A stretch of 64,000 bases of DNA, taken from assembly GCA_000165345.1 (NCBI GenBank), contig CM000434.1, positions 640,001-704,000 on the forward strand, read 5' to 3'. Each line of letters starts with the position of its first letter. The stretch's first letter is position 1. Below are positions 36,270 to 56,570 of the stretch, piece after piece. Below the pieces are notes generated by a model. That model was not told where the DNA came from, searched no databases, and saw nothing but the letters and a program-made list of their open reading frames with translations. The position numbers and the translations under genes were made by a program.

Positions 36270-39200
36270 ATGATAATAGAGAACTTGCTTGCTGATGGCC
36301 TTTGTGAGTCTACTACACCAGATAATCTTTCTGAACTTTCTGAGCAAGTTTTGGAGGCATGGGCTATGGTTAGTATTTCAGCGAAAAACTTTGTAAGTGA
36401 CATTAATAAAGTATTAGATGAATATTTGTATAATTCAAAGGTTTATGAAAAAGTTGAGACTTATCAGGATAATATTTTTAATGGATTCCAATCAGTTCCA
36501 AAATCTCCAGAAAGCAAATTACAGCTTGAAAGATTGGTTTCAACGTTGGAAACTCCGGAAATAACTGAGGCTTTAGAATGTATATATAGAAATGGTCTTT
36601 CAATACAAATCTTAGAAAGCTTTTTAGGTTATTCTCTGGATTACATAATCTCAAAAGAGATCACATTTTTTTGGACTACTTTGCTTTTACTTGGTGAAAC
36701 AGATACAAGTGACTCAAGAATGACAAGTAATGATACAAATTCTGTAGATGGGAGTTTTGTTGAAAATAAAGATTATTCTAAGGATGGTAAGACTCTTATT
36801 CCAATGGATAGAGATATTTTATCTTTTCATAGTTGTTTGATTTTTGGATTGGTAAGATTACTTTGGAATATTGTTTTCATTCTATATGGAGCAACTTCTT
36901 TGGTTAATATTCCAAATATGGAGAGGAGTAGCTTTGTATATGATTGCCTTTCTCAAAAAGATCAAGTATTTCCTAATAATCTTGGTGAATGCCCACTTCG
37001 TAGAGTGATTTATGGTTTTATGACAAAGATTCGTTTATTATTAATAGAAAGTATTCCTTCAGACTTTGACTTAGTATTGGAAAGATATATATTTGGAATA
37101 CTCACTTTTCTTTCTGAGAAGATACTTAATAATGATGAATTTTCGATAAAAAATGATATAAGTCCTATAATAATGAGAGAATATTTGTTAAAAGTTTTAA
37201 TTAATGATTCTTGTGGGAATACAAAAAAAAGAATGGAGATTTGTAAGTCAAGATTAGAGAATCTTCAGCATATATATGAACACAAAGCATCCAGAGTATT
37301 GAGTTTGAATGGTTCATTTCCATCGAATTTGGATTTTGAGACTTTAGAGGTATTATTAAGTTTGATTGGTTGCTCAAATCCTAATGAGAAATGCATAGAT
37401 CAGTTGAATTCAAGTTTTAGTGATAATAGATATATTGGAGAGGAAATTGTAAGACATAGAAATACTGGAGATCAAGATAATTGGGATAACAAGAAGATTC
37501 AGGAAATTCTTAGAGTAATTGCTCAAGGCCCAATTATAGAGGATTTATATAAAAATAATGGAGAGAATTCACTTGAAGAACTTTCAAGAATACATACAAC
37601 ATTATTGGACGAGCTGATTTGGTTAGTTTTTTGCTCTATAGAGCAAGAGAAAGAATATGTGCCTAATAAGAGTAGTCAAATAACTTTGATGACTAGAATT
37701 GGAGATCTTCCAGTTTTAATGAAATTGGTGGGATTTGAACATTTGTGGAAAAAAAGAGTGGTTTACTTGTTAAAAATGCAATCAGTAAATGCTGTGTTAT
37801 TTTTAGAAGGAAGAAAGACAGAGGAAAGTAATTTGAGAATATACTCGAAATATGTTCATGAATTTATGGGCCCAATATTAATGGGTTTATTAGATGGAGG
37901 GTTTGGATATATTAAATCTCAGGATTTTGAACTTGTAGATCAAGAGAATGACAAGAGTGAAAGTTCTGGAATGGCTAATTTTCAAGTAAATAATAACATT
38001 AGTATGATTGGGAAAGAATGTGAGCCAATGAATGGTGATTTGGCATTTCAGATGATATTTGAGGAGTTTTATATGGAATACAATTGGAGTCTTAAAAGAA
38101 GAGTTATAGACCTAATTATGGAATTTCCAAGGAGTAAAAGTTCGATTCTAGACCTTTATATTACAATGAATTACTTTCCAAGCAGCAATATATTAAGAGA
38201 TGTTTGGTTTTCGGAGATTTCAAGAGAGATCTTAAATTATGTGAATGGAAAATTACTTCATTTACATGTTGATACCTCTATAATTGTAGGATTTTATGTC
38301 AAATCGATAATATTTCTGCTCATGTTGGATTTCCCAAATGACAGGATGGATAAAACTTTGATCAGTTTTAGTGATGCTTTGAGGCAGAGAGGAGATACAA
38401 CACTTTGTATAGTTAGTTGGATGCCATTAATGCTTGAGAATTGTTCTCCAGCATTGAGTGATTCTGAGATTATAATGCCAATAAGTTGTTCAGATGAGGG
38501 CGTATATCCTCAGTTTTCAATTTCCAACCCAAACTATAGAAATGAGTGTAGAGGTTTGTTTGAAAAGTCATTTGATCAGATTCAAGAATACTCTCATTGT
38601 TTTCATATTCCCCAGATCAAGTTGGTTTTGAGTTGGATTTCTCGAATTTATGGAAGTAACTTAACTCTTCTATATGATTATATCTATAATTTGGCTTCAA
38701 GAGTGATAGGAAGTGGACAAGAATTGGGTTTTGAATCAAATTCTGTGGATGGTACAGAAAAATGTAGTCTTATTGATGAAAATACTTGGGAAATTGATGA
38801 GAGACGCTTCCAGAAGGATGAATCAGTTTATGAAATGATAAAGCTGACAATTGGTGGAAGGAGTGGTGAAAATTTGCTAAAAGGAGGTTCAGGAAGCTCC
38901 AAATTTGGGAGCAAAGATGAGCAACAATTATTGACCAACTGTAGTATAATTCTACAGGATATAAACAGCTCAATATTAGATAATAAGGAATATAGTAAAT
39001 CTAGAGAAGGATCTTTGCTTAATGCAGAATCCAAGCCAACTGTGACAGGATTTACAATTTCAAGGAATTACTGGTCAGAAGGTGTAATTAATATGGAGAT
39101 AAGAGATGACACCTTTCCTTTAGCTCCAGTATTGGAAGATGAGATTAAAGAGTACAGGCAATTCTTTGAAAGAGAACATCCAGGAAGAACTTTCAATTGT

Positions 39201-40673
39201 TTTTGTGGATATGGAATTGGTTTAGTTGACTTAACAGCAATTGATGGGACAGTGAAAAGCAACATAGCTTTGAATTTCCTACAAATAAGTATTTACGACT
39301 ATATATCAAGCAAACATCCAGAAAATGATTTGGATTATCCAGAAGGTGAATCATCAAAAGACGGATTCCTGGATTCTGATAAACTTTTAAGTTCAAATTC
39401 TATTTTGAATTGGTTTACAATCAGCCCTAAGGCTACAGATAGATCTTCTGATCGTATTAGCAAACCATTAACAGACAAGGAGGAAGTTAAGGTCACATTT
39501 ATGGATATTTTGAATCATTTTAGATTGGATGAACAGACTATTCGTTGGAGTATTGAAAATATGTTATCAAGGGGGATTATTCAAATAGTTACCAAAGAGG
39601 AAGGACTTGAGTGCTTTGATATTCCACAAACCTTTAGCAACATAAAGCTTACAAGGGAGGCAGGCGGAGAAGATGAAAAAGAGCAAGGACGAGAAATGTC
39701 TGTAGCTCAGAAAGATGAAAGTTTCAGCTTAATAAAGACAACAGAAGAAGGATATGGTTCTAATATTAATGATATGACGGTTATGTTGGACTTTAATAAT
39801 ATGCTTAATAATAGGAACAGTAATGCCTCATTGATTGGATTAAATCGTCAAAGCAGTTCTCTTAAAAAAAACTTCACTCTTTCAAGCGTAATGGAGACTC
39901 CAAAGAGGACTCCTCATGAAAATCTAGGAGAAACATCCAGTGAGAGAGCAAGTAGGAGGGAAGAAGAGGGAACAGCCTTCGATAGTCGATATTTGTCAAC
40001 TAGACGTAGTGAAATTGAGAATCAGGATAATATGCAAGAGGGCGAATATGACGAGGGTGAAGAAGAAGACGAGGATTTAAATTTGAACTTCCCAACAGGA
40101 ATAATCACTACAACCATTTCCTTCAAACCTAAAGATTTAGCACAAGATACTAGGCACCAAGGTCCAACTGCAAGCCGCGATGGGCCTTCCTACTCAAAAA
40201 AAGGAGAAAACAATCCTGGGAGTTCTGCTGGAGGAGGAAGCCTTCCTCCAATGATTGCTTTTTCGGAGACATATTTGGAGAAGTACTGTTACTTTACAAC
40301 GCCTTCTGTACTAGACCAGCAAGATAATGGATTAGACTCCTCTTCACCTAGCAATTCCAGATCTAACAAAGACAGAGAACACGCTAACTATGATATTATT
40401 AAAGAATGCGAGCTGCTCATTAGAGCTACACTCCAATTAAACGGTGCAATGGCTCCAGCTGTGCTATTTGCAAGAGTTAGAGCAGCAATTGCAAGTCAGG
40501 GTGAGGACAAGTTCTCCCAAAAAGACTCTGACGATCATCAGGGCTCTAAAGCATCTACAAATACTGACACACAATATACTTTGACATGGCCGCAGCATGT
40601 ACAAGCTATAAATAACATGGTTGACCGAGGAGAAGTATACAACAAAGGTGGAAGATTGTTCTTAGAAAAGTAA
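36270..40673 (+). CDS. large hypothetical protein (1467 aa)
   Basis: Long uninterrupted ORF transcribed divergently from the 31820..36034 gene. The C-terminal region has a winged-helix-like segment (FMDILNHFRLDEQTIRWSIENMLSRGIIQIV). Confidence 0.55.
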   Translation: MIIENLLADGLCESTTPDNLSELSEQVLEAWAMVSISAKNFVSDINKVLDEYLYNSKVYEKVETYQDNIFNGFQSVPKSPESKLQLERLVSTLETPEITEALECIYRNGLSIQILESFLGYSLDYIISKEITFFWTTLLLLGETDTSDSRMTSNDTNSVDGSFVENKDYSKDGKTLIPMDRDILSFHSCLIFGLVRLLWNIVFILYGATSLVNIPNMERSSFVYDCLSQKDQVFPNNLGECPLRRVIYGFMTKIRLLLIESIPSDFDLVLERYIFGILTFLSEKILNNDEFSIKNDISPIIMREYLLKVLINDSCGNTKKRMEICKSRLENLQHIYEHKASRVLSLNGSFPSNLDFETLEVLLSLIGCSNPNEKCIDQLNSSFSDNRYIGEEIVRHRNTGDQDNWDNKKIQEILRVIAQGPIIEDLYKNNGENSLEELSRIHTTLLDELIWLVFCSIEQEKEYVPNKSSQITLMTRIGDLPVLMKLVGFEHLWKKRVVYLLKMQSVNAVLFLEGRKTEESNLRIYSKYVHEFMGPILMGLLDGGFGYIKSQDFELVDQENDKSESSGMANFQVNNNISMIGKECEPMNGDLAFQMIFEEFYMEYNWSLKRRVIDLIMEFPRSKSSILDLYITMNYFPSSNILRDVWFSEISREILNYVNGKLLHLHVDTSIIVGFYVKSIIFLLMLDFPNDRMDKTLISFSDALRQRGDTTLCIVSWMPLMLENCSPALSDSEIIMPISCSDEGVYPQFSISNPNYRNECRGLFEKSFDQIQEYSHCFHIPQIKLVLSWISRIYGSNLTLLYDYIYNLASRVIGSGQELGFESNSVDGTEKCSLIDENTWEIDERRFQKDESVYEMIKLTIGGRSGENLLKGGSGSSKFGSKDEQQLLTNCSIILQDINSSILDNKEYSKSREGSLLNAESKPTVTGFTISRNYWSEGVINMEIRDDTFPLAPVLEDEIKEYRQFFEREHPGRTFNCFCGYGIGLVDLTAIDGTVKSNIALNFLQISIYDYISSKHPENDLDYPEGESSKDGFLDSDKLLSSNSILNWFTISPKATDRSSDRISKPLTDKEEVKVTFMDILNHFRLDEQTIRWSIENMLSRGIIQIVTKEEGLECFDIPQTFSNIKLTREAGGEDEKEQGREMSVAQKDESFSLIKTTEEGYGSNINDMTVMLDFNNMLNNRNSNASLIGLNRQSSSLKKNFTLSSVMETPKRTPHENLGETSSERASRREEEGTAFDSRYLSTRRSEIENQDNMQEGEYDEGEEEDEDLNLNFPTGIITTTISFKPKDLAQDTRHQGPTASRDGPSYSKKGENNPGSSAGGGSLPPMIAFSETYLEKYCYFTTPSVLDQQDNGLDSSSPSNSRSNKDREHANYDIIKECELLIRATLQLNGAMAPAVLFARVRAAIASQGEDKFSQKDSDDHQGSKASTNTDTQYTLTWPQHVQAINNMVDRGEVYNKGGRLFLEK

Positions 40674-50528: not shown

Positions 50529-51465
50529 ATGGTAAATAATTTGATTTGGAGGATCAGCAGGCCAATCTCCTCGAGAGTTTTCTCTGCCATACCATATTTT
50601 AGTAAGAGAACGCTTTTTCTGTCTTTTAAACGCTTCTTTCACTCAGATCCAGAACTATGGACCAAAGATGTTCATCCGAAGATGTAAGTTAATCTATTCT
50701 AGACTTAAGAAATTATAATTAAAGTTCAACTTTTTAATTCACCATTAATTGGATCCTTAGAGAACTTTCGTTTATATTGAGAGATGGTGAGAAGAAAGTT
50801 TTTAATGTAAGTTTAGAGATCTATATCTTTTATAAATACTTTAACCATTTAACTTTGCTATAACTCAGGCTCCAAAGAATATTTCTTTACTAGAAGCTGC
50901 TCAGCATGAAGAACTAGACATAGAAGGAGCATGCGAAGCATCTTTAGCATGTAGCACATGTCATGTCATTTTGGACAAAGTAAGTTTATTGAATAGATTA
51001 ACTGGGGACGAGGAAAAAAAAAGGAAACGGAACAAACTATCGGTCTAATTTCGATGTGAAGTTCCAAATAAATAACATAAAGATCTTCCTAATATAAAGA
51101 CCCAAAAATTCACAATTCATTTGCAAAAGGGGGATAACTATAAAAGCAAACATCTATTCTTCCTCAGATGCGCACAAACTAGAACTTGTCCATGAGACTT
51201 GCATCTTAACTTTGTGCTCTCATACCCTTAAAGGCCTCGCACTTATCCTTATTTTTCACTCTTTAATCCATAGGAAATTTATGATGAACTAGAACCGCCA
51301 TCAGAGAGAGAAGAGGATATGCTGGATATGGCACCGCAAGTTTGCGAAACTTCAAGATTAGCATGTCAAATCAAAGTCGACGAAAGACTGACAAAGGGTA
51401 ACATTCATCTTCCTAACATGACACGAAATTTCTATGTCGATGGATTTAAACCATCACCACACTAA
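50529..51465 (+). CDS. adrenodoxin-type [2Fe-2S] ferredoxin (mitochondrial/mitosomal Yah1-like), 5 exons
   Basis: The exons are 50529..50601, 50648..50684, 50761..50806, 50869..50979 and 51274..51465. The introns are 46, 76, 62 and 294 nt long. Their donors are GTAAGA, GTAAGT, GTAAGT and GTAAGT, and every acceptor is YAG. The spliced product has an Arg/Ser-rich presequence (MVNNLIWRISRPISSRVFSAIPYF). The mature part, FILRDGEKKVFNAPKNISLLEAAQHEELDIEGACEASLACSTCHVILDKEIYDELEPPSEREEDMLDMAPQVCETSRLACQ, aligns along its length with adrenodoxin (INRDGE...GACEGTLACSTCH...MLDLA...SRLGCQ). Confidence 0.7.
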
Positions 51466-51484
51466 GGCGGGAAGTTTTGGCGCC
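51466..51484. promoter_or_regulatory. E2F-like GGCGGGAAGTTTTGGCGCC, likely PABP promoter
   Basis: Starts 1 bp after the ferredoxin stop and lies 640 bp upstream of the PABP ATG. A purine-rich leader follows. Confidence 0.4.
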
Positions 51485-52008
51485 GAGCCACTTTGTATGC
51501 CGATACTTTTCCGTCTCTAATATATTTGGGAAGTTTAAGGTCGTGAAGAAAGAAAGGTTAGGAATAAAGATTATTTAATTACATAAGATCCCGCAAGGTA
51601 GACACGTATCCAAAGTAAATTTTAAGTCAGATTTGACAGGCAAGTATATTGTAAATAATGGTATTTGCGGATAACAATGACTTGTAAATCCACTAATACA
51701 GGCCCAGTTAATTTGGCGCTAAATGGTTAATTAGATTTAGTGAATTAATCAGAATGATTACGTCTAAAATAAGTGGAGCGTTATACGTAAAATGATTTAA
51801 GCACTATAAAGTAATTGAAATTAAAGTAAGAATAAGTAACGATGCACCAACGGCGACAGGAAAATATGTCCAGTAGAAATGAAGGTAATAAATGAATAGT
51901 ATTTTAATAGTATGATAATAAGGTCTAATGAGGTAATAGAGAGAAAAGGCTCCAGTCAAGAATAACATTGTAAATTTAAAGAAAAAATTCAAAAGGCTGT
52001 TTTTAGTC

Positions 52009-52032
52009 AAAAAAAAAAAAAAATAAAAAAAA
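52009..52032. promoter_or_regulatory. oligo(A) tract (A14TA8) in the presumed PABP 5' leader
   Basis: Direct read of the sequence; 95 bp upstream of the PABP ATG. Confidence 0.45.
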
Positions 52033-52125
52033 GACCATTGGTTGCAATTATAGTGACAAAGGGTCGCCCTATAGTTCTAGCCAAACAAATACATCAGATT
52101 TTTGTGAAGAAGGCCTATTGGAAAG

Positions 52126-54366
52126 ATGACAAGTAATAATAACGTAGTACCGGTTAGTGCCTCCCTTTATGTGGGTGATTTGGATGCAGATGTGACTGAG
52201 ACAATGTTATATGAAATATTTAATAGTGTTGCAGTTGTATCATCAGTACGTATTTGTAGAGACGCTCTTACAAGAAGAAGCTTGGGTTATGCTTATGTCA
52301 ATTACAATAGTGTAGCGGATGCTGAGAGAGCTCTAGATACTCTTAATTTCACATGCATCCGTGGCCGTCCATGCAGAATTATGTGGTGCTTACGCGACCC
52401 AGCATCCAGAAGAAACAACGATGGAAATGTATTTGTAAAGAATTTGGATAAGTCGATTGATAATAAGACATTATTCGATACTTTTAGTCTATTTGGAAAT
52501 ATTATGTCATGTAAAATCGCTACCGATGTTGAGGGTAAGTCTTTGGGATATGGTTTTATCCATTTCGAACATGCAGACAGTGCTAAAGAAGCTATTTCTA
52601 GGCTAAATGGGGCTGTATTGGGAGATCGCCCAATTTATGTCGGAAAGTTCCAGAAGAAGGCTGAACGCTTTTCTGAAAAAGATAAGACATTCACTAATGT
52701 CTATGTTAAACATATCCCTAAGAGTTGGACTGAAGATCTTCTATACAAGATATTTGGAGTATATGGTAAAATTAGCTCATTGGTCCTGCAATCCGACTCT
52801 AAAGGTAGACCTTTTGGTTTTGTGAACTTTGAAAACCCCGATTCCGCTAAGGCTGCAGTTGCTGCCTTACACAATGCTTTAGTTACTCCAGTAGGGGTTG
52901 AGTTGGACTCTACAGCAGAGACTCCAGTTGATAACGAGGCTGGAGCTGATTCTGAGACATCATCCAAGCAAGAATCTGGAGAAGCTTCTAATAAAAAACA
53001 AACTGCATCTGGCGAAGCATCAAAGGATTCTTCAGGAACATCAAACGAGGAATCTGCACAGAATGAGGATGGATCAGCTGACAAGAATGTTTCAGCTGAT
53101 GTACAACCAAATAGACTATATGTTTCTAGAGCACAAAAAAAGAATGAACGTCAGGTGGTCTTGAAGTCTCAACACGAAGCTGTAAAGGAGAGCCACCAAA
53201 GATACCAAGGTGTAAATCTTTATGTAAAGAATTTGGCAGATTCAATCAATGAGGAGGACCTCCGTTCTATGTTTGAACCATTTGGAACAGTATCTTCCGT
53301 AAGCATTAAGACTGATGAATCAGGTGTCTCAAGAGGATTTGGGTTTGTTTCATTCCTCTCCCCTGATGAAGCTACAAAGGCTATTACTGAGATGCACCTT
53401 AAGCTTGTGCGCGGAAAGCCACTGTATGTAGGCCTTCACGAACGTAAAGAACAAAGAGCACTACGTCTTCAGCAGCGTATTAGAGGGGGTGCAGTCCCTC
53501 CAGTTTTAAGACCCGGAGCAATTCCCCCAGGCCCTCCAGGAGTACATGGAGCTCCCATGCAATTTGGTGTACCACCACAAATGTACTTTATTCCTGGAAA
53601 TCCAAATGTGGCAGCAACTGCTATGCCACATGGAAGAGCGATGGTTACAGGAGGTTTCCCTAATCAAAATGCAATGAATAATCCATGGAGGCCAAATCCA
53701 ACAAGAATGCCATACACTGCAGGAGGTGTGCCTCCTCAAATGACAGGCGGTCCTCAAATGACAGCCTATAATGGCAACGTTATCCAACAAAATGGAGTAT
53801 CTCCAAACGGAGCTGCTAATGCTACCGGGTCTGTCCAAAATGGAGTCACCGGTAATGCAGTTACAGGAGTTCAAGGTGCTCAAAATAACAGAACTGGAGG
53901 AAATAACCAGAGAATTCATAATAGACATGTTCAAGGTAATGGGCAAGGAGGAAGGCCGGGCTCCCATGGTCATCAAGTTCAGCAAATGCAAAAGCAAGGA
54001 TTCAAATTTCCACAAAACGTTAAGGGATCTGAAATGCAGCGCGTGGATATGATGCAAAATAGACAAATGGATTCATCAAACGGCGCACTTGTTCAGAATC
54101 CATTAATCCCTCAACCAGATGTTCCTCTAACTGCTGCTACCTTGGCAGCTGCATCCCCTAGCATGCAGAAACAATTACTTGGAGAGAGACTTTTCCCAAT
54201 TATTGCCCAATTCCAACCAGAATTGGCAGGAAAGATCACCGGGATGATGCTTGAAATGGATAACAATGAATTATTAGAACTTTTGAGTTCTGATATTGAA
54301 ATCAAAAACAAGGTAGATGAGGCCATGGTCGTACTTGAACGTGCTCAGCAACAAATTAGCACGTAA
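52126..54366 (+). CDS. PABP: poly(A)-binding protein (four RRMs plus PABC/MLLE domain)
   Basis: 746 aa. The first RRM starts LYVGDLDADVTETMLYEIF and three more RRMs follow. The C-terminal LGERLFPIIAQFQPELAGKITGMMLEMDNNELLELL is a canonical PABC domain. Confidence 0.9.
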   Translation: MTSNNNVVPVSASLYVGDLDADVTETMLYEIFNSVAVVSSVRICRDALTRRSLGYAYVNYNSVADAERALDTLNFTCIRGRPCRIMWCLRDPASRRNNDGNVFVKNLDKSIDNKTLFDTFSLFGNIMSCKIATDVEGKSLGYGFIHFEHADSAKEAISRLNGAVLGDRPIYVGKFQKKAERFSEKDKTFTNVYVKHIPKSWTEDLLYKIFGVYGKISSLVLQSDSKGRPFGFVNFENPDSAKAAVAALHNALVTPVGVELDSTAETPVDNEAGADSETSSKQESGEASNKKQTASGEASKDSSGTSNEESAQNEDGSADKNVSADVQPNRLYVSRAQKKNERQVVLKSQHEAVKESHQRYQGVNLYVKNLADSINEEDLRSMFEPFGTVSSVSIKTDESGVSRGFGFVSFLSPDEATKAITEMHLKLVRGKPLYVGLHERKEQRALRLQQRIRGGAVPPVLRPGAIPPGPPGVHGAPMQFGVPPQMYFIPGNPNVAATAMPHGRAMVTGGFPNQNAMNNPWRPNPTRMPYTAGGVPPQMTGGPQMTAYNGNVIQQNGVSPNGAANATGSVQNGVTGNAVTGVQGAQNNRTGGNNQRIHNRHVQGNGQGGRPGSHGHQVQQMQKQGFKFPQNVKGSEMQRVDMMQNRQMDSSNGALVQNPLIPQPDVPLTAATLAAASPSMQKQLLGERLFPIIAQFQPELAGKITGMMLEMDNNELLELLSSDIEIKNKVDEAMVVLERAQQQIST

Positions 54367-55286
54367 ATCTAGAGATTCTGAGTCTTTTTTTTTGCTACTA
54401 GAAGTGTTATAACACTAGATTTTTTTTTATTTCTACGCTTGTTTTAACTTTTTCCATTGCTTTTCTAAATTAGTGTAATACAAATCTTGATTGCTTCTAG
54501 AATCAATGTGTAAATTTCTCTCTTCACTCCTTTATATGCGTTTCGAATGGTTTTTACCACTATTGTTATTAATGCAACTACTACTACTACTGATCCCGGT
54601 TCATCAAGAGTTTGAAACAATGTCTTTAATCATTATCGTCACATTAAATAAACATTACTTTATATATAGAGAGCGCGCACATGCATGTAAAATTTCAAGT
54701 GCATGCAAATTGTCAAAATCTGTGAAAGTTAACTAATAAGAAAGAAAACATATCCTAATTAAAATTTACTTAATCTAGATACACAGCCTAATCCAATTCA
54801 CTGCAACTTTTTAATTAAACAAATACACTCATTAATTTTTTTTTTTTTTTTTTTGCTACTAAAAATAAAACCATTATTTTTCTTAAATTCATCATTACTA
54901 ATGTGTCCACATAAATTGACAAATGCAATTATAAAAATTACATGATGTTGGCGCCCAACACGTAATCTAAATTAAAAAAATGGGGAAATATAAGTAATTA
55001 ATGCTAAATAGATAGAGGGGAAATTATATGGGGAAAAGTCAGGACAAAATTTACATGGAAAATTTGAGAAAAAATATTTGAAAAATAAACGCTTTTAAGT
55101 AATTGATTTTTTTTTTAAAGTGTTTATTAAAATCAAGAGTATTATATTCATGCTAACTAAGGAAATATATTGTATAAATAGTACCAAAGAAGTGAATAAT
55201 ATATTTGAATTGGCAAGATAAATAAAAAGATATTTATCCAAAAAAAAAAATTAAAGTGGAAGAGTGAGAGAAAACTTGAGGAAAAA

Positions 55287-56570
55287 ATGACTCAGGGAGT
55301 AATTTTGGAAATGATTCCAAGAGTAGAACAAACGGAAAATGTAATCGAAGAAAAACCTGTTGAAAATAATGATACTGATTTAGCAAAACTAAGTAATAAA
55401 ATCTTTGGTAATGAAATGGCTAATGTTCCACTAGTTTTCGATGAATTTCCAGTGACGAAGTTGTTACTCAGCTTTTTTGTAATACTATTTATATGTTTTG
55501 GAGTGATTGACATGATTCTAGGCTTTATTAGGCTTGGATTAATGTCATTTATTATTTCAATGTTTGTGTTATTTTTCAGATGTGGAGAAAGAAATCGTCA
55601 GCATAGTTCCATTTTTGTACTTTTTATTGTAGCATTGACCTCATCTCTAAGTTGGAATTCAATATCAAATTATATATTGAAAAATGAAGGAACACTTTTT
55701 GAAGAGAAAATATACCCACTATTGATTCTCGAGTTTTCATCATCACTATTTTTAACACTTTGGCTAATGTTAATAGCTCTTTCTGGTTATTCTGTTAAGA
55801 ATCAGCAAAATATTTATATTGATAATCAATTGTACAGAACAAACACAAATTTACGTTTTACAGCATTATCCGCTTTTAACTGGTATCTAATTTCAATGGG
55901 ATTTGAATTTTCAGTTCTTGTTTTATATTTATTGGAAGGATTTTACATAGTTTCAATCATTCCATTTATAAGTTTGCTAGTTTCAATGTTTTATGTAATT
56001 AGCAAATCCAAACGTATTTTACAATATTCAGAAATCTTTTTACCGTTTGTTATGTTGGCATATGTAATACTTAGAATGATTTATGAGTGGGTGGCTCCTG
56101 ATGACTATTCATCTATGATTGGAGCCTATTTGGTAACTATTATGGTCTTTAAACAGGTTGTCGGTCTTTCAATCTTATTTATCCCAAGCATTAACTATTA
56201 TGACATGATTAATGATAATGGTTCATATAGTGTCACTGTTGTTGTTTCTTTTAAGATTCATCAAAATAAGCAAGAAAATGCTGTTAAGAGTGCAGATATT
56301 ATTGATATTTCACCCACAAACAGAGTAATTGCTGAAAATCCCGAGTCTGAAAATAGGGAAGAGGAGGCTATTACAGTAATTCAAGTCTCTTCTAGCGAAG
56401 ATCCGGAAGGATTGATTAAATCCGTTCAAAATGATCAAATTGAGTTAAATAAAGAATCATTTGACTTAGAAACGCAAAAAAGTCACTCCGCAGTAGAGGA
56501 TGACGCAGAAGCAAATATCCCATACGAGGATGAGTCTTTAAAAATTGAAATAAATAGTAAATTAAATTAA
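55287..56570 (+). CDS. multi-pass membrane protein (hypothetical)
   Basis: 427 aa with about 8 hydrophobic helices and an acidic C-terminal tail. Confidence 0.5.
   Translation: MTQGVILEMIPRVEQTENVIEEKPVENNDTDLAKLSNKIFGNEMANVPLVFDEFPVTKLLLSFFVILFICFGVIDMILGFIRLGLMSFIISMFVLFFRCGERNRQHSSIFVLFIVALTSSLSWNSISNYILKNEGTLFEEKIYPLLILEFSSSLFLTLWLMLIALSGYSVKNQQNIYIDNQLYRTNTNLRFTALSAFNWYLISMGFEFSVLVLYLLEGFYIVSIIPFISLLVSMFYVISKSKRILQYSEIFLPFVMLAYVILRMIYEWVAPDDYSSMIGAYLVTIMVFKQVVGLSILFIPSINYYDMINDNGSYSVTVVVSFKIHQNKQENAVKSADIIDISPTNRVIAENPESENREEEAITVIQVSSSEDPEGLIKSVQNDQIELNKESFDLETQKSHSAVEDDAEANIPYEDESLKIEINSKLN

What the first reader, a model, noticed from the sequence alone, without database searches (positions are those of the whole stretch)
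51466..52125. PABP gene has a 640-nt purine-rich leader ending in an A14TA8 tract, a likely autoregulatory element
The only E2F-like promoter element upstream of PABP (GGCGGGAAGTTTTGGCGCC at 51466) lies 640 bp from the ATG. The interval is strongly C-depleted and purine-rich on the sense strand, like the other presumed 5' leaders in this window. It contains an oligo(A) run at 52009..52032, about 95 nt before the start codon. In animals, plants and yeast, PABP mRNAs carry an A-rich 5'UTR element that PABP itself binds to repress its own translation. The same arrangement appears here.
Basis: partly seen in the sequence, partly recalled or inferred. Interest (0 to 1): 0.6.

Follow-up and report, generated by a model that had tools for sequence, protein, structure and literature searches.

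The report
Conserved oligo(A) tract before Cryptosporidium PABP
The poly(A)-binding protein gene of Cryptosporidium parvum has a 24-base A-tract about 95 bases before its start codon that is kept across the genus; it is probably the parasite's version of the known feedback site where PABP binds its own mRNA, but the proposed 640-base leader starting at an E2F site is not supported.

Summary
The window is C. parvum chromosome 6. The gene at 52126-54366 is a canonical PABP with 4 RRMs and an MLLE domain.

**Confirmed.** The E2F-like string is at 51466-51484. The A-tract is at 52009-52032 and is A15TA8, not A14TA8.

**New comparative support.** The tract keeps its position (-117..-94) and strand in six intestinal-clade species. 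The gastric species C. muris and C. serpentis instead have A21 and A27 directly against the ATG. Homopolymers in the neighbouring spacer are not conserved. ATG is absent from the last 195-257 nt before the start codon in all six intestinal species, but occurs at normal density further upstream.

**Not supported.**
- The E2F string is not the only E2F-like site. A conserved TTTGGCGC lies at 51712 (-414).
- The E2F string begins on the base after the ferredoxin stop codon.
- A 640-nt leader would carry 12 upstream ATGs and would be far longer than the C. parvum mean 5'UTR of 137±116 nt.

**Best model.** The leader is about 200-260 nt and contains an oligo(A) site for PABP autoregulation.

**Rivals.** The tract could be a poly(dA:dT) promoter element, or it could serve as an embedded AATAAA polyadenylation signal.

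No transcript mapping could be obtained. This is a new member of a known kind, of moderate interest.

The parts
50529..51465 (+). Upstream neighbour: spliced 2Fe-2S ferredoxin gene (167 aa). Exons are 50529-50683, 50761-50806, 50869-50979 and 51274-51465, and the stop codon TAA is at 51463-51465.
   Evidence: The annotated genome lists a Fer2 gene call at this position. Three GTAAGT...AG introns reconstruct a 167-aa ORF. Cryptosporidium ferredoxin Fd1 homologues were found.
51466..51484 (.). Bipartite E2F-like element (GGCGGGAA + TTTGGCGCC). It begins on the base after the ferredoxin stop codon, 660 nt before the PABP ATG.
   Evidence: A double E2F-like motif is conserved right after the stop codon in meleagridis, ubiquitum, canis and P0004sp, and is displaced by about 30 nt in felis.
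51599..51637 (.). Genus-wide conserved blocks: TAGACACG (51599-51606) and the palindrome GTCA-N4-TGAC (51626-51637). Their function is unknown; they could be promoter sites or ferredoxin 3'UTR elements.
   Evidence: Both are invariant in five intestinal species. The same two motifs occur in the same order in the otherwise unalignable muris and serpentis spacers, as ATAGACAC and GTCAAGTACTGAC.
51712..51719 (.). Second E2F-like site, TTTGGCGC, 414 nt before the PABP ATG. It is the more likely proximal promoter element.
   Evidence: At the aligned position meleagridis has TTTTGGCGCCAAA, P0004sp TGGCGCC, felis GGCGCCA and ubiquitum GGGCGC.
51931..52125 (+). ATG-free zone, taken as the inferred minimal 5' leader of PABP mRNA. 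The transcription start is inferred at roughly 51870-51930.
   Evidence: The nearest upstream ATG is at -198 in parvum and at -230 to -257 in five other species. ATG count is 0 in the last 195 nt in all six, while the five permutations of the same letters (AGT, TAG, TGA, GAT, GTA) occur 1-6 times each; ATG count is 1-8 at -420..-225. Conservation is highest here, at 0.76-0.87.
52009..52032 (+). Oligo(A) tract A15-T-A8, the candidate PABP-binding autoregulatory site. It contains AATAAA at about 52022-52027.
   Evidence: It is identical in 8 C. parvum assemblies and conserved at -117..-94 in six species. The embedded AATAAA was found.
52038..52084 (+). Inverted repeat / possible RNA hairpin immediately 3' of the A-tract (TTGGTTGCAATTATAG...CTATAGTTCTAGCCAA).
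   Evidence: Free energy is -12.5 to -16.3 kcal/mol with z of -2.4 to -3.9 in five species, and weaker in felis. 93% of cells are paired, against 26-46% in slid controls, but no pair shows a compensatory change.
52126..54366 (+). PABP coding sequence: 746 aa, a single exon, 4 RRMs plus a C-terminal MLLE domain.
   Evidence: The protein is identical to C. parvum Iowa II 'poly(a)-binding protein fabm' (CAD98589.1 / A3FPV5_CRYPI / CPATCC_002842).

Best explanation
PABP mRNA of C. parvum probably starts about 200-260 nt upstream of the AUG, near 51870-51930, and not at 51485. Its leader then carries a single-stranded oligo(A) tract (A15UA8, 52009-52032) about 95 nt before the start codon. When free PABP is abundant, its RRM1-2 would bind this tract, which is long enough for high-affinity binding, and hinder scanning or 48S assembly, lowering PABP synthesis. 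When PABP is titrated by poly(A) tails, the site would be empty and translation would proceed. Transcription is probably driven by the conserved region 51590-51870, which includes the E2F-like site at 51712. The bipartite E2F element at 51466 lies in or at the ferredoxin 3'UTR and is at most a distal element.

Shown: the anatomy, the conservation and the ATG depletion.

Inferred: that the tract is transcribed, that PABP binds it, and that binding represses translation.
For: 1. The gene is a canonical cytoplasmic PABP with 4 RRMs and MLLE.
2. The tract has 15 consecutive A. Yeast Pab1 needs at least 12 A for high-affinity binding (Sachs 1987, as cited in PMC5733569).
3. Position and sense-strand polarity are conserved at -117..-94 in six species: parvum and meleagridis (A15TA8), ubiquitum (A13TA9), canis (A6TA9), P0004sp (A7TA9TA6) and felis (A5TA13). 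This holds although four-fold synonymous sites of the PABP coding sequence are near saturation, at 34-44% identity.
4. The gastric species C. muris and C. serpentis, whose spacers are not alignable with the intestinal ones, carry A21 and A27 immediately 5' of the ATG. These must be at least partly in the mRNA. Each is the longest homopolymer in its 8-9.5 kb locus.
5. Control: T19, T10 and A11 in the next spacer are not conserved beyond meleagridis.
6. The tract is the longest among the 200-nt upstream regions of 28 genes in the window.
7. ATG is specifically missing from the last 195-257 nt in all six intestinal species. Permutations of the same three letters are present, and ATG density is normal further upstream. 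This is as expected for a scanned leader that includes the tract.
8. Conservation rises to 0.76-0.87 over the last 270 nt.
9. Precedent: PABP binds A-rich 5'UTR elements of its own mRNA and represses translation in mouse, human and yeast (PMC4691835; PMC5733569; PMC3559699).
Against: - No transcript end was mapped, so the tract could lie upstream of the transcription start. The mean C. parvum 5'UTR is 137±116 nt, so a start downstream of -94 is quite possible.
- The ryanae/bovis-like clade has only short A-rich stretches (A4TA5 and A4TAATTA7) at -326 and -262.
- canis and P0004sp have at most 9 consecutive A.
- The ATG-free zones of related species are not independent observations.
- Poly(dA:dT) is a general feature of open chromatin at C. 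parvum promoters.
- The conserved T creates an AATAAA hexamer.
- The whole leader is not more structured than shuffled sequence (z = -0.05).
Confidence: 0.5

Rival explanations
1. The tract is a DNA-level promoter element. In this view a poly(dA:dT) run keeps the PABP core promoter free of nucleosomes, transcription starts downstream of it (5'UTR under 94 nt), and the tract is not in the mRNA.
For: - A poly-T motif is the second most enriched motif in sporozoite ATAC-seq peaks (bioRxiv 2025.01.17.633476).
- Other spacers in the window also hold A or T runs of 10-19 nt.
- The published mean 5'UTR of 137±116 nt allows a start downstream of -94.
- An ATTATAG...CTATAG repeat follows the tract.
Against: - The run is A on the sense strand in all eight species that have it. 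Nucleosome exclusion alone does not require a fixed strand.
- In muris and serpentis the run touches the ATG and cannot lie upstream of the start site.
- Comparable tracts in the neighbouring promoter region are not conserved.
- ATG depletion extends 80-140 nt upstream of the tract.
Confidence: 0.2
2. The tract matters because of its embedded AAUAAA. In this view it is the polyadenylation signal for a long (about 560 nt) ferredoxin 3'UTR, or for read-through or polycistronic transcription, and it insulates the PABP promoter.
For: - The Cryptosporidium signal is A(A/G)TAAA.
- Every intestinal species keeps at least one T in the tract, giving AATAAA at -104 to -117. In canis and felis this is the only such hexamer in the whole spacer.
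- UTR overlap and polycistronic transcripts are common in C. parvum.
Against: - Any T-interrupted A-run gives AATAAA automatically, and one or two such hexamers are expected by chance in a spacer of this composition. This expectation is my own back-of-envelope estimate from base frequencies.
- The long A flanks are not explained by a signal function.
- muris and serpentis have pure A-runs and no A(A/G)TAAA anywhere in the spacer.
- parvum, meleagridis, ubiquitum and P0004sp have hexamers 60-150 nt after the stop codon, next to the least conserved, indel-rich part of the spacer (51526-51585). That looks like a normal 3' end.
- A 3'UTR function does not predict ATG depletion.
Confidence: 0.12
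3. One reading: transcription starts just after the E2F element at 51466-51484, giving a leader of about 640 nt that runs continuously to the AUG.
For: - The element is a strong, conserved bipartite E2F match.
- E2F motifs mark the 5' ends of transcripts in ATAC-seq data.
- The whole spacer is more conserved than neutral sites: 32% of columns are invariant, against 10.5% at four-fold sites.
Against: - The element begins on the base after the ferredoxin stop codon, so the first part of the interval must be that gene's 3'UTR.
- There are 12 upstream ATGs, all at -198 or beyond.
- 640 nt is more than 4 SD above the C. parvum mean 5'UTR.
- A second conserved E2F-like site lies at -414.
- Other E2F clusters in the window mostly lie 39-353 nt from the next ATG.
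- Conservation dips to 0.46-0.51 at 51526-51585.
Confidence: 0.07
4. The tract is a mutational by-product of an AT-rich spacer (replication slippage) and has no function.
For: The genome is about 33% G+C, and A or T runs of 8 nt or more occur 40 times in the window.
Against: - It is conserved in six species at one position while synonymous sites are saturated.
- Its length is identical in 8 parvum assemblies and in meleagridis.
- Neighbouring runs decay between species.
- A second, separately placed run precedes the same gene in gastric species.
Confidence: 0.08

Closest known systems
Adenine-rich autoregulatory sequence (ARS) in the 5'UTR of human/mouse PABPC1 mRNA (de Melo Neto 1995; Wu & Bag 1998; CLIP and reporter data in PMC4691835)
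   Same: An A-rich element lies upstream of the AUG of the PABP gene itself, and its length is compatible with PABP binding. The proposed logic is the same: free PABP represses its own translation.
   Different: The mammalian element is about 60 nt of several short oligo(A) blocks interrupted by pyrimidines, and it works together with a 5' TOP motif and partner proteins (the TOP motif and partners are from my own knowledge). Here there is one nearly pure 24-nt run. Neither its presence in the mRNA nor binding has been tested.
Yeast PAB1 5'UTR internal poly(A) region (Sachs 1986/1987; PMC5733569)
   Same: A genomically encoded oligo(A) of at least 12 A lies in the leader of the PABP gene. In yeast it is single-stranded and bound by Pab1 at nanomolar affinity.
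   Different: In yeast the region is also bound by Sbp1. No such partner was looked for in Cryptosporidium. Whether the yeast tract and this one share ancestry or arose independently is unknown. Even within Cryptosporidium the tract sits at different places in different clades.
Poly(A) leaders that promote cap-independent translation (yeast invasive-growth mRNAs, Gilbert 2007, cited in PMC5733569; poxvirus late mRNAs, from my own knowledge)
   Same: The A21 and A27 runs directly abutting the AUG in C. muris and C. serpentis look like such leaders.
   Different: Those leaders activate rather than repress translation. In C. parvum the tract is internal, 94 nt from the AUG.
Cryptosporidium E2F/DP upstream motif ([C/G]GCGC[G/C], GGCGGG; Oberstaller 2013, PMC3734150; Xiao 2025 preprint)
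   Same: Both sites at 51466-84 and 51712-19 match the published cores. All 20 E2F-like clusters in the window are intergenic.
   Different: The two sites lie 660 and 414 nt from the ATG, at the long end of the window's range. The first sits on a neighbour's stop codon, so assigning it to PABP is uncertain.

Membership tests
PABP autoregulatory 5'UTR A-rich element | The host gene encodes a cytoplasmic poly(A)-binding protein (4 RRMs + MLLE) | tested here: met
   Pfam RRM_1 x4 (E = 1.8e-76) and MLLE (E = 9.9e-26). The protein is identical to annotated C. parvum PABP.
PABP autoregulatory 5'UTR A-rich element | An oligo(A) or A-rich stretch long enough for PABP binding (at least about 12 A) | tested here: met
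   The tract is A15TA8 in parvum and meleagridis. Longest pure runs are A13 in ubiquitum and felis, A21 and A27 in muris and serpentis, but only A9 in canis and P0004sp and A5-7 in the ryanae clade.
PABP autoregulatory 5'UTR A-rich element | The element lies within the transcribed 5'UTR of the PABP mRNA | tested here: inconclusive
   The support is indirect only: an ATG-specific desert of 195-257 nt spans the tract, and the gastric tracts abut the ATG. No transcript ends were obtainable. The only extra contig I could fetch was genomic.
PABP autoregulatory 5'UTR A-rich element | PABP binds the element, and removing it de-represses translation | not testable with these tools
   This needs EMSA or CLIP and reporter or knock-in experiments.
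Cryptosporidium E2F/DP promoter motif | Match to [C/G]GCGC[G/C] or GGCGGG with T/A flanks, in non-coding DNA and over-represented | tested here: met
   The cores are as published in PMC3734150.
Cryptosporidium E2F/DP promoter motif | Lies in open chromatin at the 5' end of the transcript it controls | not testable with these tools
The distances of 414 and 660 nt are at the long end of the window's range.
poly(dA:dT) nucleosome-excluding promoter tract | A homopolymer upstream of the transcription start | tested here: inconclusive
   This is possible in the intestinal clade. It is not possible in muris and serpentis, where the run touches the ATG.
Polyadenylation signal A(A/G)UAAA | The hexamer is present and conserved at the site | tested here: inconclusive
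   AATAAA is present in all six intestinal species. It is an automatic consequence of a T inside an A-run, and it is absent from the gastric species.
Polyadenylation signal A(A/G)UAAA | Cleavage/poly(A) sites of the upstream transcript lie 10-30 nt downstream | not testable with these tools
   No 3'-end data were available.

The most novel reading that the evidence does not exclude
The tract may be an activator rather than a repressor. In this reading a genomically encoded poly(A) leader recruits PABP/eIF4G internally, so that PABP mRNA is translated cap-independently. The template could be a monocistronic mRNA or the downstream cistron of a ferredoxin-PABP dicistronic transcript of the kind recently reported in C. 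parvum. The A21-A27 runs touching the AUG in gastric species would be the extreme form, resembling poxvirus-type poly(A) leaders. The embedded AAUAAA would additionally let PABP levels choose between terminating upstream read-through and making productive mRNA.
Probability: 0.1. Interest if true: 0.7.

Novelty: new member of a known kind. Interest (0 to 1): 0.4.

Why it matters
Translational control in Cryptosporidium is almost unexplored. A 2025 review notes that even upstream ORFs have not been described there (PMC12246861).

A conserved, easily mutated 24-nt element in front of an essential translation factor would give a concrete and genetically testable example of post-transcriptional feedback in this parasite. 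It would also extend PABP autoregulation to a deep-branching apicomplexan.

The tract sits at different places in different clades, next to the same gene. This suggests the feedback is maintained by selection even when the sequence turns over.

If the tract instead proves to be untranscribed, it is simply a promoter poly(dA:dT) run and is of little interest.

Tried and rejected
- **Transcript evidence.** Contigs carrying the exact PABP protein were looked up twice, but only the 24 blocks with the longest contigs are read. The four blocks with 2-5 kb contigs, which might be cDNA-derived, were never reached.
- **Spliced ferredoxin.** The C. parvum protein was also not among the homologues returned.
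- **Cluster member P0136.** Its 5.9 kb contig keeps the introns, so it is genomic.
- **Wakaguri 2009 supplement.** The supplementary table of oligo-capped cDNA ends is truncated in the library and holds no C. parvum rows.
- **Other supplements.** The polycistron and small-RNA papers have no supplements held, and the lncRNA paper's supplements mention neither gene.
- **Known RNA family in the spacer.** There is no Rfam match at gathering threshold in the whole window. Only chance-level hits (E = 4.9-8.3) appear in 51300-52300.
- **Global leader structure.** It is not more stable than shuffled sequence (z = -0.05). A long-range helix predicted by RNAalifold rests on invariant columns only.
- **Hairpin covariation.** No compensatory pairs were found.
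- **Cross-clade alignment.** Aligning intestinal, gastric and ryanae-type spacers gave no trustworthy alignment. Homology of the tracts between clades is therefore not claimed.
- **C-depletion as a leader signature.** Rejected, because the value is average for upstream regions in this window.

Full report
**Identity of the locus.** The 746-aa ORF at 52126-54366 has four RRM_1 domains and a C-terminal MLLE domain. Its exact sequence is encoded on Cryptosporidium parvum chromosome 6 records BX526834.1 and CP029785.1. It equals the protein annotated 'poly(a)-binding protein fabm', CAD98589.1 / A3FPV5_CRYPI / CPATCC_002842. The window is therefore C. parvum chromosome 6. The gene immediately upstream on the same strand is a spliced 2Fe-2S ferredoxin. 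Three GTAAGT...AG introns give a 167-aa product with exons 50529-50683, 50761-50806, 50869-50979 and 51274-51465. Its TAA stop is at 51463-51465.

**Check of the observation.**
- GGCGGGAAGTTTTGGCGCC is at 51466-51484, so it begins on the base after the ferredoxin stop codon.
- Both halves are strongly over-represented in the window. GGCGGGAA occurs 6 times against 0.31 expected, and TGGCGCC 14 times against 0.47 expected.
- They match the published Cryptosporidium E2F/DP cores (PMC3734150).
- All 20 E2F-like clusters in the window are intergenic.
- The A-run is at 52009-52032 and is A15-T-A8, not A14TA8. It ends 94 nt before the ATG.
- It is the longest A-run in the window, although a T19 exists at 54836. 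It is also the longest A-tract in the 200-nt upstream regions of 28 ORF-defined genes; the next longest are A11 and A10.
- The statement that this is the only E2F-like element is wrong. TTTGGCGC lies at 51712-51719, at -414.
- The interval is 60.4% purine and 11.9% C. The C value is average for upstream regions here (12.6±4.2%). Purine richness is real but graded, rising from 55.7% to 61.8% to 64% toward the ATG. The last 200 nt are the most purine-rich of 29 upstream regions.

**Comparative evidence.** I fetched the orthologous ferredoxin-PABP loci of eight named Cryptosporidium species and two unnamed species. The named species are C. meleagridis, C. ubiquitum, C. canis, C. felis, C. ryanae, C. 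muris and C. serpentis, besides C. parvum itself. The unnamed species are P0004sp and P0009sp. Gene order is conserved throughout, and the spacer is 472-955 nt.

*Overall conservation.* In five intestinal-clade species, 32% of the spacer columns are invariant. This compares with 10.5% of four-fold synonymous sites in the PABP coding sequence and 17.6% of the next spacer downstream. Conservation is lowest at 51526-51585 (0.46-0.51), an indel-rich stretch that in parvum holds AATAAA 98 nt after the ferredoxin stop. It rises to 0.76-0.87 over the last 270 nt.

*The A-tract.* It is kept at the same place (-117..-94) and on the sense strand in six species:

| Species | Tract |
|---|---|
| parvum | A15TA8 |
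| meleagridis | A15TA8 |
| ubiquitum | A13TA9 |
| canis | A6TA9 |
| P0004sp | A7TA9TA6 |
| felis | A5TA13 |

It is identical in eight C. parvum assemblies.

*Gastric species.* Their spacers do not align with the intestinal ones. C. muris has A21 and C. serpentis A27 directly abutting the ATG. Each is the longest homopolymer in its 8-9.5 kb locus.

*The ryanae/bovis-like clade.* It has only A4TA5 and A4TAATTA7, at -326 and -262.

*Control.* T19, T10 and A11 in the PABP-to-next-gene spacer are not conserved beyond meleagridis.

**How long is the leader?** Several results argue against 640 nt.
- The spacer holds 12 ATGs in parvum, all at -198 or further upstream.
- In all six intestinal species the last 195 nt contain no ATG, while the five permutations of the same three letters occur 1-6 times each.
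- At -420..-225, ATG occurs 7, 8, 6, 4, 1 and 5 times in the six species.
- The nearest upstream ATG is at -198 to -257.
- Oligo-capped cDNAs give a mean C. parvum 5'UTR of 137±116 nt (PMC2722674), and the mean spacer length is 504 bp (PMC7840661).
- Other E2F clusters in the window mostly lie 39-353 nt from the next ATG.

I therefore place the transcription start at roughly -200 to -260 (51870-51930). This puts the tract inside the leader and leaves 51466 to about 51590 for the ferredoxin 3'UTR. The segment 51590-51870 would be the promoter. It contains the conserved E2F-like site at 51712 and several invariant blocks: TAGACACG, GTCA-N4-TGAC, TTACGTCTAA and CGACAGGAA. This placement is inferred. 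I could not obtain transcript ends.

**Mechanism.** The best-supported reading is the known PABP feedback loop. [quoted passage not shown] This is shown in mouse and human (CLIP plus reporters, PMC4691835) and in yeast. In yeast the Pab1 5'UTR poly(A) region is single-stranded and bound at about 31 nM, and at least 12 A are needed for high affinity (PMC5733569). The loop has also been suggested for trypanosomes (PMC3559699). The strongest argument for a function tied to the PABP message itself is the pattern across clades: a long sense-strand A-run next to this particular gene in two clades, at different positions, while neighbouring runs decay. I found no report of this for Cryptosporidium or other apicomplexans in the searchable library.

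**Rivals.**
1. *A poly(dA:dT) promoter element.* A poly-T motif is the second most enriched motif in C. parvum ATAC-seq peaks, and a start site downstream of -94 is not excluded. This does not fit the gastric arrangement, the constant strand, or the ATG desert that extends upstream of the tract.
2. *A polyadenylation signal.* The conserved T makes AATAAA, which matches the Cryptosporidium signal A(A/G)TAAA. In canis and felis it is the only such hexamer in the spacer. However, any T inside an A-run gives this hexamer, the long flanks are unexplained, and the gastric species lack it.
4. *No function.* This is contradicted by the conservation.

These readings are not mutually exclusive in a genome with widespread UTR overlap and polycistronic transcripts.

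**Structure.** Directly 3' of the tract is an inverted repeat (52038-52084) that folds at -12.5 to -16.3 kcal/mol in five species, with z of -2.4 to -3.9. It has no compensatory changes, so it may equally be a DNA-level element. The leader as a whole is not unusually stable. No Rfam family matches.

**Verdict.** The A-tract observation is real and is considerably strengthened by comparative data. The E2F-to-ATG '640-nt leader' framing is not supported. The likely function is a Cryptosporidium instance of PABP autoregulation: a new member of a known kind, of moderate interest. Everything depends on transcript-end data that already exist publicly but could not be reached here.

Noticed in passing
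window 51466-51484, with the aligned positions in L014, L015, L018, L019 and L023: A bipartite E2F-like element (two cores about 12 nt apart) sits directly on the 3' side of the ferredoxin stop codon in five of six intestinal-clade species. It could serve PABP as a distal element, or drive an antisense transcript over ferredoxin. Published C. parvum antisense lncRNAs often have E2F motifs within 100 bp upstream.
   Followed up: partly
window 51599-51606 and 51626-51637; L022 (C. muris) and L021 (C. serpentis) spacers: TAGACAC(G) followed 20-40 nt later by a GTCA-N4/5-TGAC palindrome is conserved in the same order in intestinal and gastric species, although the rest of the spacer cannot be aligned. 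These are unknown factor sites or 3'UTR elements.
   Followed up: partly
window 51758-51792 and 51854-51871: There are further invariant blocks with inverted-repeat character: TTACGT...ACGTAA, which has 6-nt arms and an ACGT core, and GACAGG...TGTC. No known motif was assigned to them.
   Followed up: no
window 52038-52084: A 47-nt inverted repeat / possible hairpin lies immediately after the A-tract. It is thermodynamically stable in five species but shows no covariation.
   Followed up: yes
window 50529-51465: The ferredoxin gene has three short introns that all start GTAAGT. The older record BX526834.1 carries a 109-aa model, and the newer assembly carries the 167-aa model that I could reconstruct.
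   Followed up: partly
window 54836-54854 and 54949-54955: A T19 run, the longest homopolymer in the window, lies about 100 nt from an E2F-like TGGCGCC in the spacer before the next gene (ATG at 55287). The run shrinks to T7 in C. meleagridis and is absent in more distant species.
   Followed up: yes
window 54385-54393 and 54420-54428: Two T9 runs lie 18 and 53 nt after the PABP stop codon. They are retained as T7-T11 runs in meleagridis and ubiquitum, and one is retained in canis. They are possibly PABP 3'UTR elements.
   Followed up: partly
L016 1-3543 and L017 1-3419 (Logan SRR26126307 and SRR26126320): Two independent runs each give a 3.4-3.5 kb contig holding only the PABP gene of an unnamed ryanae/bovis-like Cryptosporidium, with 373 and 280 nt upstream and about 700 nt downstream. 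Only two ATGs (at -360 and -343) occur in the 373 nt upstream. The contigs are transcript-like, but I could not verify the type of library.
   Followed up: partly
L020 about 2846-2946 (C. ryanae, -155..-55 before the PABP ATG): A TA/CA microsatellite has expanded inside the presumed PABP leader of C. ryanae and introduces five upstream ATGs (-64 to -88) that the related unnamed species lacks.
   Followed up: no
window 40724: Another E2F-like site (CCGCCAAA) lies about 50 nt after the stop codon of the upstream same-strand ORF (36270-40673). E2F sites placed at a neighbour's 3' end are therefore not unique to the PABP locus.
   Followed up: no
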